From positions 16,067 to 80,066 of the forward strand of contig JAZNSQ010000019.1 in NCBI GenBank assembly GCA_045591265.1: DNA of 64,000 bases. The letters are read 5' to 3'. This DNA comes from Clostridia bacterium. Lineage in GTDB: Bacteria > Bacillota > Clostridia > UMGS1883. The notes under the pieces were generated by a model. That model searched no databases, had not been told where the DNA came from, and worked only from the letters and a program-made list of their open reading frames with translations. A program made the translations under genes and the position numbers. Below, in pieces: positions 6,649 to 46,679 of the stretch. Position 1 is the stretch's first letter, and each line of letters opens with the position of its first letter.

Positions 6649-7512
6649 ATGAACATTATCGAAGCAGAAAACCTTTTCTTTAAGTATGATGAGGAGGGAA
6701 ACTCCTACGTGCTTAAGGATTTAAACTTAAATATAGAAAAAGGAAGCTTTACCGCAATAATCGGTCATAACGGAAGCGGGAAAAGCACCTTTGCAAAGCA
6801 TCTTAATGCAATACTGCTTCCAAGTGGCGGAAGTGTGACGGTTTGCGGGATAGATACTTCCGACAAAAAGAAAATCTACGAGCTTCGCAAAAATGCAGGG
6901 ATGGTATTTCAAAACCCCGACAACCAAATTGTTGCAACTATTGTAGAAGAAGACGTTGCTTTCGGTTTAGAGAATATCGGTATTGAAAGAGAAGAAATGC
7001 ATTCGCGCGTTAAAGAAGCACTTACGGCAGTTGATATGTATGAATTTCGCACTCGCGCACCGCATCTTCTTTCAGGCGGGCAAAAGCAGCGCGTTGCAAT
7101 AGCAGGAATTCTTGCGATGAACCCCATGTGCATTATTCTTGATGAGCCAACCGCAATGCTTGACCCTCTTGGTCGCCGTGAGGTGCTTTCAACCATAAAA
7201 AAGCTAAATCGGGAAAAAGGCATAACGATAGTACTCATCACTCACTATATGGATGAAGCGTGCAGTGCCGACAGGGTGGTTGTGATGAATAAGGGGGAAA
7301 TTTCGCTTGACGCATCCCCAAAAGAAATATTTAAGGACGAGGAAGCACTTAAAAAACTCGGGCTTGACGTTCCGCAGAGTGTTGCTCTTTTAAACAGACT
7401 TAAGGAAGAAGGATTTAATCTTTCAGATAGTGCGCTTACTCCCGAAGAATGTGCACAGGAGATACTAAAGCTTTTTAAGAAAAATTCCGAAGGTAAGGAA
7501 AACCCAAAATGA
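6649..7512 (+). CDS. ecfA1: energy-coupling factor transporter ATPase EcfA1
   Basis: Walker A GHNGSGKST, LSGGQKQRVAIAGILA, ILDEPTAMLD. Start at ATG 6649 after GGAAGGA. It lies in the conserved ecfA1-ecfA2-ecfT-truA order. Confidence 0.9.
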   Translation: MNIIEAENLFFKYDEEGNSYVLKDLNLNIEKGSFTAIIGHNGSGKSTFAKHLNAILLPSGGSVTVCGIDTSDKKKIYELRKNAGMVFQNPDNQIVATIVEEDVAFGLENIGIEREEMHSRVKEALTAVDMYEFRTRAPHLLSGGQKQRVAIAGILAMNPMCIILDEPTAMLDPLGRREVLSTIKKLNREKGITIVLITHYMDEACSADRVVVMNKGEISLDASPKEIFKDEEALKKLGLDVPQSVALLNRLKEEGFNLSDSALTPEECAQEILKLFKKNSEGKENPK

Positions 7513-43497: not shown

Positions 43498-44450
43498 ACT
43501 AAAACCAAGTCTTCTTTTTTTATTTCGCTTTCCTCGGGCAGTACAAAGTTAAATGCCTTGGGGCAAATCTCAAAGTGTGTTTTGCCCGCATCTGTAATTT
43601 CTCCGTCAATACAGATTTTAAGGTTTTTGCCAAGCGGTGTAATAGATATTTCCCGGCACTTTTCGCACAGTATTATCTTTTCTATATTTTTAAGCTTTAA
43701 AAAGCTACCCTTCATATAGCGGGGAAGAAGGGTTAAAAACCTTGTACGAGATATGTTCTTAATGATATTTACGCTTATAAGTCCATCACTTACAGAGGCT
43801 AGGGGGTTACTTTTAATTCCGCCCCCGCAAAATGACCCGTTTGCAACAGAAGTAAGAAGAAGACGCCCCGAGTGCTTTACTTTCCCGTCAAGCCTAATTT
43901 CAAGGTTTTCGCCTTTTTTAGTAATGAGCATAACTAAAATTGAAATAAAATATGCCAACGGCCCCGAAATAAAAGGCTTTTTCTTCATTTGAGCAGTAAG
44001 GTCAGCCACACGGCAGTCAAATCCGATGTTAAACATATTCGCCGAGTAGCCTGTAACAGTCTTTCCGCCTGATGTGGTAGTATATTTTATCGCATCGCAT
44101 TTCACGCTTTTGCCACAAATTTGATGAGTGATATCGCTAAAGGAGTATCTTTTATCAAAGTTACGGCAAAAGTCGTTACCCGTTCCTACTGGGATTACAC
44201 CAATTTCTGCATCTTCAAAGCCGATAGCCCCGTTTAACACCTCGTTTAGCGTTCCGTCACCACCGCAGGCAATAAACCTTGCCCCGCCAAAGCTTTTGCA
44301 AAAGTTTCTCACAAAGTCTGTCGCTTCGCCCGGGGCTTTCGTTATGTAAATCTGGGAGTTTGGATTATTTAAACTATTAATTTTTTTAATCAGGGAGTCT
44401 GCCCAGTTTCCCTGTCCTGCACAGGGGTTAACGATAAAAATTGTCTTCAT
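43494..44450 (-). CDS. dagK: diacylglycerol/lipid kinase (DagK/YegS family)
   Basis: ACGGDGTLNEV motif. Start at MKTIFIVNP, chosen over the longer track ORF. Confidence 0.8.
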   Translation of the reverse strand: MKTIFIVNPCAGQGNWADSLIKKINSLNNPNSQIYITKAPGEATDFVRNFCKSFGGARFIACGGDGTLNEVLNGAIGFEDAEIGVIPVGTGNDFCRNFDKRYSFSDITHQICGKSVKCDAIKYTTTSGGKTVTGYSANMFNIGFDCRVADLTAQMKKKPFISGPLAYFISILVMLITKKGENLEIRLDGKVKHSGRLLLTSVANGSFCGGGIKSNPLASVSDGLISVNIIKNISRTRFLTLLPRYMKGSFLKLKNIEKIILCEKCREISITPLGKNLKICIDGEITDAGKTHFEICPKAFNFVLPEESEIKKEDLVLV

Positions 44451-44575
44451 AAAATCTACCCTTGTCATTTTTTGACATATTTTATATATAACAATTATAT
44501 CACATAATAAAAACAATTCAATAAGGAAATAAAATCCACAGAAAACAATTAAAAGATTAATTAGTCTAAACTGTG

Positions 44576-44809
44576 TTAAAAATCATGACACCCCTCGACA
44601 AAAATATTATATTTTTCAAATAAGCATACAATTTCTTCGACCATTTCAAAATCGGAGTATTTATCGTTTTCAATTATTTTTTGTATTTCGGATAATAGCT
44701 CAAGAGCAGTAGAATTAACTATCTCATTTGCATCAATTTCAAAATCCTGGATATGATATTTTACATAGTTAGAAATATATTTGTTTAATAATTGAGTTTT
44801 AATAAGCAT
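44576..44809 (-). CDS. small acidic hypothetical protein (77 aa)
   Basis: ATG preceded by GGAGGTGATAAA; divergent from the XRE gene; AT-rich. Confidence 0.5.
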   Translation of the reverse strand: MLIKTQLLNKYISNYVKYHIQDFEIDANEIVNSTALELLSEIQKIIENDKYSDFEMVEEIVCLFEKYNIFVEGCHDF

Positions 44810-44931
44810 TTTATCACCTCCTGAGACAAAATTTAATTTTGTCTCATTTTTACAACCAATTATAACATTCTTTGATAGTAAAATCAAGACAGAAGTGTAA
44901 AAAACGAGACAAATTTGATGTGGTGAATGCT

Positions 44932-45177
44932 ATGAAACAGAGAACTGAAGCAAATGGCAAAAATCTTATAGGAGAGAGACTTAAGGAGTTAAGAAGAAAT
45001 TCTAATCTATCTCAACGTGATTTGGCAAGGCAACTGCAACTTATTGGAATTGATATGGATAAGAATGTGATAACTCGAATTGAAACAAATAAGAGATACG
45101 TGACTGATTTTGAACTTCAGGCGCTTAAGGAGATTTTTAAAGTCAGCTATGATTACTTAATCGACGGAGAAAAATAA
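44932..45177 (+). CDS. XRE-family HTH transcriptional regulator
   Basis: LKELRRNSNLSQRDLARQLQLIG HTH; 82 aa from ATG 44932. Confidence 0.75.
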   Translation: MKQRTEANGKNLIGERLKELRRNSNLSQRDLARQLQLIGIDMDKNVITRIETNKRYVTDFELQALKEIFKVSYDYLIDGEK

Positions 45178-45195
45178 AATAATATGTTTAGATAA

Positions 45196-45236
45196 GGAAA
45201 AGAGACGATTTACGGATGGTAAATTGTCTCTTTTTT
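45196..45236 (+). terminator. terminator hairpin H1 (copy of a repeated ~40-bp hairpin element)
   Basis: GAGACGATTTAC-GGAT-GGTAAATTGTCTC followed by TTTTTT. Confidence 0.7.
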
Positions 45237-45407
45237 GCAAAATAGTAAATTTATTTGTCGCTATTATTCTTTGCAGTGTCAAGCATTTTATCATCTCCTG
45301 CGTATTATAGCATATAAATTTTAATTTTACAACAGAAATTTCTAATATATTTTAAAATCTAATTTTATCATATAATATAAATAAGATATGATATAAGGAT
45401 GATTGAT

Positions 45408-45575
45408 ATGGCATTTACACCCAGAGAAACGAAAAAGAAGGTCAAGGCAGGATATAAAACTTTGTATATCACTGATGAATTGGTTGAAAAAATTGATAAT
45501 CTTGCGAAAAAGCACGAGACAAGCTTTAACAATATTGTGATAAGCATTATAGAGGATTTTTTTAAAGAAAAATAA
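45408..45575 (+). CDS. small ribbon-helix-helix (CopG/Arc-like) protein, 55 aa, unannotated
   Basis: RBS AAGGATGA. It has a beta-strand KTLYITDELVEKI followed by two helices. It is followed by hairpin H2. Under 60 aa, so absent from the ORF track. Confidence 0.5.
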   Translation: MAFTPRETKKKVKAGYKTLYITDELVEKIDNLAKKHETSFNNIVISIIEDFFKEK

Positions 45576-45580
45576 ATAGA

Positions 45581-45622
45581 AGAGACAATTTTACCATCGG
45601 TAAATTGTCTCTTTTTTTCTGG
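45581..45622 (+). terminator. terminator hairpin H2 (second copy of the hairpin element)
   Basis: GAGACAATTTTACC-ATC-GGTAAATTGTCTC followed by TTTTTTT. Confidence 0.7.
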
Positions 45623-45645
45623 TGTCGGCGAGGGGGACAGATGCT
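45622..45645. repeat. degenerate partial copy of the tmRNA 3' end (candidate distal att remnant)
   Basis: CTGGTGTCGGCGAGGGGG versus the genuine 3' end CTGGTGGAGGCGAGGGGGG at 45825-45843. Confidence 0.5.
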
Positions 45646-45824
45646 ACGCATCTTGCCTGCTTGACGACCCAAATGCTTTGCATTTCGGTACCCGTCTGCG
45701 CACCAAAAAGCTAAAAAACTTGCCACAGGCAACTTTTTTAACGCTTTTTGCCCACTTTGGGTTCAACCCCCCTCTATAGTAAAAAAAGAAAGAGTATACC
45801 TTGCGGTACACCCTTTCTTTTTTT

Positions 45825-46171
45825 CTGGTGGAGGCGAGGGGGGTTGAACCCCTGTCCGAAAACATATTCACACAGGCATCTCCGAGCGCAGTCACTTAAT
45901 TAACATTCCCTCTGCCGTATGGCAAGTGACAGCCTCACGGTTTTAGTAGCTTCATTTGTCATGTATGGCGCAAAGCTTTGCCATATCACGTTCACCACTT
46001 TGTGACGCCCTTATCCAAGCCGTGGTCCTCCCGGTAAGGACGGCTACCTAATTAGGCAGCGTAAGCTAAATTTTTGTTAGCGTTTAATTTTAAAGTTTGG
46101 AATTTTAACGTAGTTTCCGCTACGGCTCGCTTCCCATGCTTCAACATCCCCGTCGAAACCGGAACGCCCCC
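45825..46171 (-). ncRNA. ssrA: tmRNA (SsrA)
   Basis: 5' end GGGGGCGTTCCGGTTTCGACGGGGATG. 3' tRNA-Ala-like end CGGACAGGGGTTCAACCCCCCTCGCCTCCACCA. An internal tag ORF ends ...AAC AAA AAT TTA GCT TAC GCT GCC TAA (..NKNLAYAA). It lies just downstream of smpB. Confidence 0.9.
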
Positions 46172-46209
46172 ATTTAGCTATGTTAGTATACTATAAAACA
46201 CCCTTTTGG

Positions 46210-46679
46210 TCAATAGGTATTTCTTTCCTTGAGGGTCCTTTCAATAGTTCTTTTTGCATCACGTTTTGCAGCGTCTTCACGCTTGTCATAAAGCTTTTTA
46301 CCGCGCGCAACGGCTACTGTCACCTTAACCCTTTGCCCGCGAAGATACATATCAAGCGGGATAATAGTCAGCCCCTTTTGCTTTACGTAACCTAAAAGGC
46401 GCATAATCTCACTTTTATGCATCAAAAGTCTTTTCGGGCGGAGCGGGTCACGGTTAAAGATATTTCCCTTTTCGTAAGGAGAAATATGCATTCCGTGAAT
46501 AAAAATCTGCCCCGCGTCAATTTCGCAGTAGCTTTCCTTAAGGTTAACCTTTCCCATACGGATAGATTTAACTTCTGTGCCGAAAAGCTCAATGCCTGCC
46601 TCTATTTTTTCTTCTATGAAATACTCGTGATGAGCTGTTTTGTTTTGCGCGAGTATTCTTCTTGCCGTTTTGTCTGCCA
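46210..46679 (-). CDS. smpB: SsrA-binding protein SmpB
   Basis: [36 protein letters not shown] conserved N-terminus; start at MADKTA. Confidence 0.9.

What the first reader, a model, noticed from the sequence alone, without database searches (positions are those of the whole stretch)
45180..45830. Decayed integrated islet at the 3' end of ssrA: partial tmRNA-end copy, inverted stem copy, small XRE/RHH/hypothetical genes
tmRNA 3' ends are classic integration sites. Here the genuine 3' end (45825-45850) has a degenerate direct copy at 45622-45645. The 16-nt T-stem segment GAGGGGGGTTGAACCC also recurs in inverted orientation at 45759-45774. Between dagK and ssrA lie only AT-rich small genes: a 77-aa acidic protein divergent from an XRE repressor, then a 55-aa RHH protein. 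They resemble a prophage or island regulatory remnant, or a toxin-antitoxin-like module. No integrase remains.
Basis: partly seen in the sequence, partly recalled or inferred. Interest (0 to 1): 0.6.

Follow-up and report, generated by a model that had tools for sequence, protein, structure and literature searches.

The report
Structured mini-insertion at the tmRNA gene end
Just downstream of the tmRNA gene lies a 205-base, protein-free insertion bounded by a copy of the gene's 3' end; it carries a conserved multi-hairpin element, absent from RNA family libraries, whose two ends change together with the tmRNA across related gut Clostridia, while the neighbouring small regulator genes are unrelated to it.

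Summary
Both repeats are real. The tmRNA 3' end (45826-45842) recurs at 45620-45636 with 2 mismatches (0.03 matches expected by chance). The 16-nt T-arm segment recurs perfectly inverted at 45759-45774.

They enclose a 205-bp non-coding unit: terminator A (45781-45824), then a 155-nt element I call X (45620-45774, ssrA strand). X starts with the reverse complement of the T arm and ends with the tmRNA-end copy.

X is conserved. There are 13 full-length and 5 truncated copies in related uncultured Clostridia. Twelve full-length copies lie downstream of ssrA, or of an element inserted at ssrA. One lies at a tRNA-type 3' end.

X has a five-helix fold with strong covariation: 31 of 49 pairs show double changes. 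Rfam, the phage records and the plasmid records have no match. X is present or absent between strains with identical SmpB. Its arm and its 3' copy track tmRNA T-loop, T-stem and acceptor variants.

The acidic-protein/XRE and RHH genes lie outside the repeats. They belong to conserved small-gene modules found at non-ssrA loci in relatives. No toxin or phage signature was found.

Best reading: a miniature, non-autonomous, ssrA-targeted integrative module. The role of X is unresolved.

The parts
45826..46171 (-). ssrA (tmRNA), one-piece, tag ANKNLAYAA. The T arm and 3' end at 45826-45856 are the source of both repeats.
   Evidence: ARAGORN; Rfam RF00023, 162 bits, E 1.3e-65
45836..45851 (-). T-arm segment GGGTTCAACCCCCCTC (sense strand). 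It forms a perfect 16-nt inverted repeat with the 5' arm of X.
   Evidence: I9, 100% complementary, 61 nt between arms
45781..45824 (.). Terminator A: a bidirectional hairpin with A and T runs directly after the tmRNA ACCA. It is the left part of the inserted unit. Its GTACC-GCAA-GGTA core is shared by the X-bearing relatives.
   Evidence: I3, 20-nt arms, 90% complementary; homologous terminators in L005, L007, L010, L012, L026, L093 and L113
45620..45774 (-). Element X, 155 nt, read on the ssrA strand. P1 pairs 45768-45774 with 45630-45636. The 5' arm, antisense to the T arm, is 45759-45774. P2 is 45751-45761. P3, a long terminator-like hairpin, is 45704-45750. The GGUGCGCAG junction and P4 lie in 45658-45702. 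The AAGCAG junction and P5 lie in 45637-45657. The 3' tail GCCGACACCA is 45620-45629.
   Evidence: Fold -64 kcal/mol, z -4.4; covariance model R1 scores 157 bits, E 1e-38; covariation 31 of 49 pairs; no Rfam family
45620..45636 (-). Direct copy of the tmRNA 3' end (T-stem 3' strand, acceptor 3' strand, ACCA), with 2 mismatches. This is the attR-like or displaced end.
   Evidence: 2 matches, 0.03 expected; D1
45575..45618 (.). Terminator B, bidirectional. It is homologous to the terminator that follows ssrA directly in the X-less relative L009, and to the terminator after XRE81.
   Evidence: I11; blastn to L009, 81% over 57 nt; alignment A8
45408..45575 (+). RHH-like 55-aa gene. It lies outside the repeat-bounded unit and belongs to a conserved ~57-aa family.
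   Evidence: PHROG 582 Arc-like, 4.3e-6; Pfam RHH_1 below cutoff; 126 homologues at 61-91% identity; other loci
45198..45236 (.). Terminator after XRE81, a near-duplicate of terminator B.
   Evidence: D3, 86% over 28 nt; I1, I15; A8
44932..45177 (+). XRE-family 81-aa regulator, convergent with ssrA. It is not part of the insert.
   Evidence: Pfam HTH_19 4.4e-10, HTH_3; 2638 homologues, the best at 85-91% identity; 94% identity to the L011 copy, also downstream of ssrA
44576..44809 (-). 77-aa acidic protein, the divergent partner of XRE81. It belongs to a conserved family with no Pfam model.
   Evidence: 69% identity to the partner of the XRE homologue in L096; family alignment A7
44822..44846 (.). 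Perfect palindrome TGAGACAAAAT-T-TAATTTTGTCTCA in the acid77/XRE81 intergenic region. It is a candidate operator (inference).
   Evidence: Sequence; listed as a terminator-like hairpin; I13

Best explanation
The DNA between the two tmRNA-end copies is one discrete, protein-less insertion unit of about 205 bp. It sits at the T-loop/3'-end integration site of ssrA. I read it as a miniature, non-autonomous integrative element: the att-flanked, gene-less end state that is called a CIME for ICEs and IMEs and a MITE for insertion sequences.

Its left part supplies, or retains, a complete ssrA 3' end and a terminator (A). Its right part is X, a ~135-nt five-helix module. The displaced ssrA end and its original terminator (B) lie beyond X.

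X starts with 14-16 nt antisense to the T arm. That arm pairs with the distal copy (helix P1). In a continuous single strand it pairs with the proximal T arm instead. The fold therefore rebuilds a duplex with the sequence of the target site, and it brings the two junctions together.

Shown: the anatomy, the conservation, the structural covariation, the insertion polymorphism, the tandem arrays, and the concerted change with the tmRNA.

Inferred: that a recombinase supplied in trans moves or moved the unit. Tyrosine integrases and large serine recombinases both occupy ssrA in these relatives. Also inferred: that X is the cis-acting part, possibly acting as a folded single strand.

The XRE, RHH and acidic-protein genes are neighbours, not cargo.
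For: Insertion signature.
- An 18-nt direct repeat starts at the last two T-loop bases.
- Empty sites exist: L009 against the window; L094 against L093, which have identical SmpB and tmRNA 3' end.
- The closest relatives L002, L084 and L085 lack the unit.

Unit character.
- All 13 full-length copies have the same boundaries: terminator, a 5-18-nt spacer, the antisense arm, the body, then the 3'-end copy.

Behaves like an island in an array.
- An LRR-protein gene lies between ssrA and the unit in L024 and L074, and a serine-recombinase prophage does in L082.
- In L093 an island with GTAATCGTT repeats and restriction-modification genes follows the copy at the end of X.

Retargeting.
- In L083, X sits at a tRNA-type 3' end without G3:U70. 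Its arm (GGGGAATCGAACCC) and its 3' copy (TTCCCCGATGGGTCACCA) match that gene, and a second, truncated copy follows in tandem.

Decay.
- Truncated copies occur in L006, L010, L111/L112 and L083.

Selection on structure.
- 92.4% of cells are paired. 31 of 49 pairs have double changes, against 17.3 +/- 2.3 in shuffles and 10-11 when the partner is slid.
- Conserved imperfections (a GGU bulge, an A.G and a G.G mismatch) and conserved junctions (GGUGCG, RAGCAG) are kept.

Precedent.
- Dehalococcoides ssrA islands insert in the tmRNA T loop, leave a 20-bp repeat, form tandem arrays and use a serine recombinase (PMC3146451).
- CIME definition: PMC5704250.
Against: - No recombinase lies in or next to the unit. 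No autonomous parent carrying X was found. X is absent from the phage and plasmid collections. In viral contigs it occurs once, as host flank.
- There is one copy in the window. It is not at the window's three tRNA genes, nor at about 16 tRNA genes in the held loci.
- Divergence of the X body tracks tmRNA divergence (r = 0.81; L113 against L007 and L012: X 89-91%, tmRNA 93-94%). That fits long residence with loss better than frequent transfer.
- A 205-bp double-stranded circle is an awkward recombination substrate.
- Integrase arm regions are not known to need intrastrand pairing, so the structure of X is not explained by the dsDNA model.
- The concerted change of arm, copy and tmRNA needs an extra mechanism: correction or selection.
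Confidence: 0.45

Rival explanations
1. X is a functional RNA made by read-through of terminator A, or processed from an ssrA-X precursor. It acts on or with tmRNA. Its 5' arm anneals to the T arm. Its 3' end is a spare acceptor 3' strand with ACCA. X could therefore strand-swap into the tRNA-like domain, as a regulator, a decoy for 3'-end enzymes, or a spare part.
For: - The arm and the 3' copy follow the resident tmRNA in each genome. T-loop position R57 matches in 10 of 10 genomes. The T-stem double change AGGAG/CTCCT in L113 is mirrored in both. The acceptor variants CGGTTCC (L093) and CGGCTCC (L039) are mirrored.
- The X body co-diverges with tmRNA, so re-insertion is not the obvious cause.
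- G.U pairs outnumber A.C by 18 to 7 on the ssrA strand.
- Orientation is fixed, and X ends in ACCA followed by a terminator.
- The continuous strand folds at -117 kcal/mol, z -10.6. In that fold the tmRNA T-stem 5' strand pairs with the distal copy, and the arm sequesters the proximal end.
- The helices stay intact in the window although the acceptor part of the copy has 2 changes.
Against: - No conserved promoter lies between terminator A and X.
- X sits behind a 16-20-bp terminator with a U run, and it contains a terminator-like P3.
- X is missing or truncated in close relatives and in a strain with identical SmpB, so it is dispensable.
- One copy is at a tRNA-type gene.
- 28 of 44 predicted loops are triloops, several of the C(GNA)G type. 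From my own knowledge, that type is noted for stability in DNA hairpins rather than typical of structured RNAs.
Confidence: 0.2
2. Passive scar. A gene-bearing island or prophage integrated at ssrA and was later deleted. That left attL and attR with arm fragments. The small XRE/RHH genes are its regulatory remnant.
For: - A direct repeat of the tmRNA end is present and no integrase remains.
- ssrA is a busy integration site in relatives.
- XRE-type genes lie convergent to ssrA in the window, L011, L094 and L083.
Against: - The genes are outside the repeat pair.
- The same boundaries occur in 13 copies from different species.
- Structural covariation and conserved junctions show constraint.
- The acid77/XRE81 and acidic/RHH modules are conserved families at non-ssrA loci.
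- XRE81 is 85-91% identical across many clusters, unlike phage repressors.
- There is no toxin or phage hallmark.
Confidence: 0.1
3. Host-generated palindromic structure with no mobility. Template switching at the ssrA terminator hairpin created inverted and direct copies of the gene end and keeps correcting them. The block persists as a multi-terminator insulator next to a very strongly transcribed gene.
For: - In L094 and L046 the ssrA terminator is extended into a perfect palindrome that includes 17 or 8 nt of the tmRNA end.
- There are three terminator-like hairpins in 250 nt.
- Hairpin-templated correction would give concerted change and apparent compensatory changes without selection. 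That mechanism is known from work on quasipalindrome and template-switch mutation (my own knowledge).
Against: - The inverted arm is not contiguous with the terminator stem: a 10 x 7 nt internal loop separates them.
- Conserved mismatches and bulges would be erased by such correction.
- This does not explain the X body, its conserved junction sequences, or the copy at a tRNA-type gene with a tandem second copy.
Confidence: 0.12
4. Chance similarity caused by shared terminator T-tracts and the self-complementarity of the T stem.
For: The GGGG/CCCC T stem makes part of any inverted match automatic. Both copies are next to T runs.
Against: - 0.03 matches are expected and one extra is found.
- The inverted match includes the asymmetric 7-nt T loop.
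- The same arrangement recurs in 13 full-length copies (12 distinct sequences) with co-varying ends.
Confidence: 0.01

Closest known systems
Genomic islands in tRNA/tmRNA genes (Islander-type tDNA islands; tandem arrays at ssrA)
   Same: An intact target gene plus a displaced 3' fragment in direct orientation. Identity starts inside the T loop and runs to CCA. The unit is present or absent among relatives, and it lies in tandem with other inserts (PMC4383910 abstract).
   Different: 205 bp, with no integrase and no cargo gene. It carries a conserved, covarying multi-hairpin module whose first 16 nt are the inverse of the target T arm.
Dehalococcoides ssrA-specific genomic islands (DsiB serine recombinase)
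   Same: Insertion in the middle of the tmRNA T loop. [quoted passage not shown] Tandem arrays. A conserved motif just upstream of the repeat (PMC3146451). Large and small serine recombinases abut ssrA in relatives L092 and L082.
   Different: Those islands are 10-30 kb and carry a six-gene integration module. No such module is linked to X, and no inverted T-arm copy or structured element is described there.
CIMEs (cis-mobilizable elements) and MITE-like non-autonomous derivatives
   Same: Retains att-type repeats but has no recombination or transfer genes. It can sit in accretion with other elements at the same site (PMC5704250).
   Different: No related autonomous element is known. The unit is far smaller than described CIMEs. 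It is single-copy, unlike MITEs. It has no transposase-type terminal repeats or short target duplication.
Folded single-strand recombination sites (integron attC; CTX-phage attP(+) hairpin used by XerCD). Resemblance recalled from my own knowledge, not tested.
   Same: An inverted copy of target-like sequence inside the element lets a single strand fold into a duplex that mimics the target. Structure is conserved more than sequence. The signal is strand-specific (G.T 18 against A.C 7). Loops are short.
   Different: In the free form only 8 bp of the site would be duplex. No integron integrase or Xer link is seen, and no ssDNA life stage is known. This is a lead, not a membership.
Curated RNA families (Rfam 15), including tmRNA_permuted and two-piece tmRNA
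   Same: A weak sub-threshold hit of tmRNA_permuted (21.8 bits against a gathering score of 47) spans T arm, terminator A and X arm. X ends like an acceptor piece.
   Different: No family reaches its threshold on X. The resident tmRNA is a complete one-piece gene. X lacks a T loop and a 5' acceptor strand.

Membership tests
tDNA/tmRNA-integrated genomic island | Intact target gene plus a displaced 3' fragment of it in direct orientation at the far end | tested here: met
   45826-45842 against 45620-45636, 15 of 17 identical, 0.03 expected. The same holds in the 11 other copies whose ssrA-side flank is visible.
tDNA/tmRNA-integrated genomic island | Integrase or recombinase gene inside the island | tested here: not met
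   No ORF with a family hit lies within 45620-45825. All 13 full-length copies lack coding capacity between terminator A and the 3'-end copy.
tDNA/tmRNA-integrated genomic island | Occupied and empty sites among relatives | tested here: met
   L009 against the window. L094 against L093, which have identical SmpB. L002, L084 and L085 lack it.
CIME (att-flanked element without recombination or transfer genes) | attL and attR retained, recombination and transfer genes lost | tested here: met
   Direct repeat present; no genes
CIME (att-flanked element without recombination or transfer genes) | Derived from, and mobilizable by, a related autonomous element with the same att sites | tested here: inconclusive
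   No element carrying X together with a recombinase was found in 118 loci, the phage and plasmid collections, or the viral and metagenome pattern scans. Recombinase elements do use ssrA in relatives.
MITE | Terminal inverted repeats, a short target-site duplication and many copies per genome | tested here: not met
   One copy in 64 kb and none at other sites in about 0.9 Mb of loci. The repeat is an 18-nt gene end, not a short duplication.
Known RNA family (Rfam 15) | Score at or above a family's gathering threshold | tested here: not met
   Only ssrA passes. The best hit touching X is 21.8 bits against a threshold of 47.
Structured functional RNA (generic) | Conserved secondary structure supported by compensatory changes | tested here: met
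   31 of 49 pairs have double changes and 92.4% of cells are paired; 0 of 500 shuffles reach this; slid controls give 10-11 pairs. The alignment is fitted to the model, so it leans towards the structure.
Structured functional RNA (generic) | Own promoter, or evidence of transcription | tested here: not met
   No conserved -10/-35 between terminator A and X in 12 loci. Expression cannot be tested with these tools.
Type II toxin-antitoxin module (XRE or RHH antitoxin plus toxin) | Adjacent co-directional toxin gene with a family match | tested here: not met
   XRE81 and RHH55 are each followed by a terminator. acid77 is divergent and matches no toxin family above cutoff (PIN, E 0.021, below cutoff). 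PADLOC gives nothing for acid77 or RHH55.
Prophage or island regulatory remnant | Linkage to an att site or phage genes, with patchy, fast-evolving repressors | tested here: not met
   The genes lie outside the repeat pair. The same modules occur at loci free of tRNA and ssrA, or among housekeeping genes. XRE81 is 85-91% identical across many clusters. XRE81-like genes are nevertheless next to ssrA in L011 and L094 as well.

The most novel reading that the evidence does not exclude
X is a nucleic-acid device that reads its own target by base pairing. Its 5' arm pairs with the sense strand of the T arm. Its 3' end is identical to the target from the T loop to CCA, and so is complementary to the other strand. 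Two forms are not excluded. (a) X is an RNA that strand-swaps into the tRNA-like domain of tmRNA: it sequesters the native T loop and 3' end and offers a spare acceptor strand with ACCA. That would make it a natural regulator or spare part of trans-translation. (b) X is the guide or substrate of a miniature integrative element that recombines as a folded single strand mimicking the ssrA site. Either would be a new kind of system.
Probability: 0.15. Interest if true: 0.9.

Novelty: new variant of a known kind. Interest (0 to 1): 0.62.

Why it matters
ssrA is a classic landing site for mobile DNA, but islands are catalogued only when they carry an integrase and genes. This case shows a gene-less, 205-bp occupant of that site that is conserved across species. 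It has a covarying five-helix fold, and its two ends change in step with the tmRNA T arm and acceptor strand.

If it is a mobile mini-element, it extends the MITE/CIME idea to tDNA integration. It would also explain some 'orphan' tmRNA-end fragments.

If it is an RNA that pairs with tmRNA, it would be the first dedicated partner RNA of the trans-translation system.

In practice, annotation pipelines should not read the XRE/RHH genes beside it as island cargo. The covariance model built here can be used to map the element.

Tried and rejected
- Rfam at E <= 10 over 44300-46400 gave nothing on X.
- blastn of X against the phage and plasmid records gave no match.
- Pattern scans found little. Two viral scans hit only L082, where X is host flank beyond a serine-recombinase prophage. 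The single metagenome scan gave one contig, L083.
- Exact-protein look-ups for the window's SmpB and RHH55 gave one short contig and nothing.
- The covariance model found no second X in the window or at tRNA genes in the loci.
- A third tmRNA-end copy that would enclose the small genes does not exist.
- dagK synteny with ssrA is absent in all relatives.
- A coding reading of X was rejected. The basic ORF running through X in the window (45644-45895) is closed by the conserved TTTTTAGC in L007.
- A group I intron or intervening sequence was considered. X is too small, has no conserved terminal G and no Rfam hit, and the upstream tmRNA is already complete.
- An IS200/IS605 PATE or a TnpB guide RNA was considered. 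The end hairpins are dissimilar, such elements leave no gene-end duplication, and there is no Rfam IS605 hit.
- A retron ncRNA was considered. No reverse transcriptase is adjacent.
- An IS110 bridge RNA was considered. No DEDD recombinase is nearby.
- A decayed second acidic-protein gene upstream of RHH55 is weakly supported at best. Only a 20-nt RBS/start match exists (D5), and tblastn gives nothing significant.
- GC skew, tried for replication direction, follows gene orientation and was uninformative.
Full report
OBSERVATION.
The window carries a standard one-piece tmRNA gene on the - strand at 45826-46171 (ARAGORN; Rfam 162 bits). smpB and an RNase R-family (RNB) gene lie upstream of it.

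The last 17 nt of the tmRNA recur once, at 45620-45636, with two mismatches. Shuffles of the window give 0.03 such matches. The similarity continues through the adjoining T-run and terminator (62 nt at 71%, D1).

The 16-nt T-arm segment at 45836-45851 recurs as a perfect inverted copy at 45759-45774 (I9). Only the right end of the direct copy needs a small correction.

ANATOMY.
Read on the ssrA strand, the order is as follows.
- tmRNA ending in ACCA.
- Terminator A (45781-45824).
- A 6-nt spacer.
- A 155-nt segment I call X (45620-45774).
- Terminator B (45575-45618).

X begins with GAGGGGGGTTGAACCC, which is antisense to the T arm. It ends with CCCCCTCGCCGACACCA, the tmRNA-end copy. X folds far better than shuffled sequence on either strand (z about -4.4). 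No Rfam family covers it.

Beyond terminator B lie four genes.
- RHH55 (45408-45575, +).
- XRE81 (44932-45177, +), with a terminator that is a near-copy of terminator B (D3).
- The divergent 77-aa acidic gene (44576-44809, -).
- A DAG-kinase/YegS-family gene.

X IS A CONSERVED ELEMENT.
A genome scan with SmpB returned 80 loci from uncultured Clostridia and Oscillospiraceae. I then inspected the DNA after each tmRNA. I also ran an nhmmer search and a covariance-model search. I fetched further contigs through SmpB homologues.

Full-length X copies (13): the window, L007, L012, L026, L093, L113, L115, L025, L024, L039, L074, L082 and L083. L113 and L115 carry the same sequence.

Truncated copies (5): L006, L010, L111, L112, and a second copy in L083.

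Every full-length copy has the same boundaries: a terminator, a 5-18-nt spacer, the antisense T-arm, the body, then the copy of the gene's 3' end followed by another terminator.

On the model-based alignment of 11 copies, 92.4% of cells are paired. 31 of 49 pairs show changes on both sides. Shuffles give 17.3 +/- 2.3, and sliding the partner gives 10-11. This alignment is fitted to the model, so it leans towards the structure.

Individual helices change sequence outright.
- P3 base: CAAAAAGC/GCUUUUUG, UUUUUGC/GCAAAAA, GCAAGGC/GCCGUGC.
- P4 base: GACG/CGUC, GAUG/CAUC, GCCG/CGGC, GUCG/CGAC.

Junction sequences (GGUGCG, GGGUAC, RAGCAG), a GGU bulge, and A.G and G.G mismatches are kept.

G.U pairs outnumber A.C by 18 to 7 on the ssrA strand. 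28 of 44 predicted hairpin loops are triloops.

INSERTION BEHAVIOUR.
The copy at the end of X shares the gene's sequence from the last two T-loop bases to ACCA. That is the geometry reported for T-loop insertion of Dehalococcoides ssrA islands, which leave a 20-bp repeat (PMC3146451).

Empty sites exist.
- In L009 the tmRNA is followed directly by a terminator homologous to the window's terminator B.
- L093 and L094 encode the same SmpB protein and the same tmRNA end. Only L093 has terminator A and X.
- The three closest relatives of the window (SmpB 90-92%) lack X.

The unit sits in arrays like any island.
- An LRR-protein gene lies between ssrA and the unit in L024 and L074. In L024 this insert carries its own CGCCTCCACCA repeat.
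- In L082 a prophage with a 522-aa serine recombinase lies between them.
- In L093 an island with direct repeats and restriction-modification genes follows the copy at the end of X.

In L083 the element is attached to a different gene end, TTCCCCGATGGGTCACCA. That end lacks G3:U70, so it is a tRNA-type gene, probably tRNA-Lys by my own recollection of such sequences. The T-loop part of the arm is adapted to it, and a truncated second copy lies in tandem.

CONCERTED CHANGE WITH THE tmRNA.
Across ten genomes the arm is complementary to the resident T loop at the variable R57 position in 10 of 10 cases, with two states.

In L113/L115 the tmRNA T stem has the double change AGGAG/CTCCT. The arm reads GAGGAGAGTTGAACTC and the copy reads CTCTCCTCGCC.

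The acceptor variants CGGTTCC (L093) and CGGCTCC (L039) are mirrored in the copy.

Identity of the X body nevertheless tracks tmRNA identity (r = 0.81). L113 against L007 and L012 gives X 89-91% and tmRNA 93-94%. One discordance stands out: L093's X is closest to the window's X. The element therefore looks long-resident in this clade, with frequent loss. Its repeats are kept in step either by correction or by selection.

When the whole stretch is folded as one strand, the energy is -117 kcal/mol (z -10.6). In that fold the arm sequesters the proximal T loop and 3' end, and the tmRNA T-stem 5' strand pairs with the distal copy.

THE SMALL GENES.
XRE81 belongs to a very large, tightly conserved family: 2638 hits, the best at 85-91% identity.

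In L096-L103 a 91%-identical XRE gene is paired divergently with a 77-aa protein that is 69% identical to acid77. That locus has no tRNA or tmRNA within 5 kb.

L104 has acidic protein, XRE and RHH in a row among mnmE, murJ, mazG, hup and gatB.

L105-L109 have acidic/RHH pairs at yet other loci. All the acidic partners are homologous (A7). RHH55 has 126 homologues at 61-91% identity.

No toxin, defence or specific phage family is matched.

These genes are thus conserved small regulatory modules, not cargo of the repeat-bounded insert. They are, however, neighbours of ssrA in L011 (94%) and L094 (85%) too. That may be local ancestral synteny.

INTERPRETATION.
The best-supported reading (0.45) is a miniature, non-autonomous integrative unit at the ssrA T-loop/3'-end site, analogous to a CIME (PMC5704250). 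X would be its cis-acting part.

The main rival (0.2) is a read-through RNA that pairs with tmRNA. It explains the concerted change best. It conflicts with the lack of a promoter, the strong upstream terminator, the internal terminator-like hairpin and the dispensability of X.

What X does is not settled by computation. The decisive data are excision-junction reads, transcript mapping and a wider covariance-model census.

Noticed in passing
window 44576-45575; L096 4644-5252; L104 4340-5174; L105-L109: A modular small-gene system is conserved in uncultured Clostridia. A ~78-aa acidic protein (conserved C-terminus ..EKYNI..GGRHDF, no Pfam family) is transcribed divergently from a small DNA-binding protein, which is either XRE (81 aa) or RHH (57 aa). 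L104 has all three in a row. Function unknown.
   Followed up: partly
window 44822-44846; also 45198-45236 and 45578-45617: A perfect 11+11 palindrome TGAGACAAAAT-T-TAATTTTGTCTCA lies between acid77 and XRE81. GAGACAAWTT-like half-sites recur in the two near-identical terminators that flank the RHH55 segment (spacing 381 bp). That suggests the RHH segment was inserted or duplicated at a terminator.
   Followed up: partly
L094 1100-1170; L046 just after the tmRNA: The ssrA terminator is extended into a perfect palindrome that contains an inverted copy of the tmRNA 3' end (17 nt in L094, 8 nt in L046). In L094 a convergent two-HTH gene, whose first domain is 85% identical to XRE81, ends 11 nt from it.
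   Followed up: partly
L082 5151-6719; L092 1525-3204 and 5071-5622: Large serine recombinase genes abut the ssrA 3' end in relatives. In L082 the ORF has no stop codon until it has run through terminator A into X. L092 pairs a 559-aa recombinase with a 183-aa resolvase, like the Dehalococcoides DsiB/DsiA module, and ARAGORN finds no tmRNA after smpB there.
   Followed up: partly
L003, L030, L035, L047, L048, L057, first ~70 nt after the tmRNA: A shared motif, GAACACCTWCT followed by a GCGGCGG..GCCGC hairpin, lies directly downstream of ssrA in several more distant relatives. It may be another conserved ssrA-flank element or an island arm.
   Followed up: no
L007 ~7120-7210; L009, L011, L054, L082 ~6870-7050: Arrays of short hairpins, each preceded by GTGAAAT (or GTGATGT), lie downstream of ssrA or of X.
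   Followed up: no
L020, L023, L085 and L093 (1385-1600): A terminator with a TTGATACAAT-type loop, followed by GTAATCGTT direct repeats that look like integrase arm sites, marks one island family at ssrA. In L093 it starts at the copy at the end of X, and an HTH gene plus a methyltransferase/MjaI-like restriction pair follow.
   Followed up: no
L013, L014, L016, L017: The tmRNA lies 1.0-1.4 kb further from smpB than in the other loci, so something is inserted between smpB and ssrA in this rabbit-gut group.
   Followed up: no
L002, L004, L084, L087, after the tmRNA: Direct repeats TGCACGA(A/T)TTT follow the ssrA terminator. In L004 and L087 the 3' end of a tyrosine-integrase-like gene lies on the opposite strand (read by eye, not scored). 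This would be a classical integrase island at the same site.
   Followed up: no
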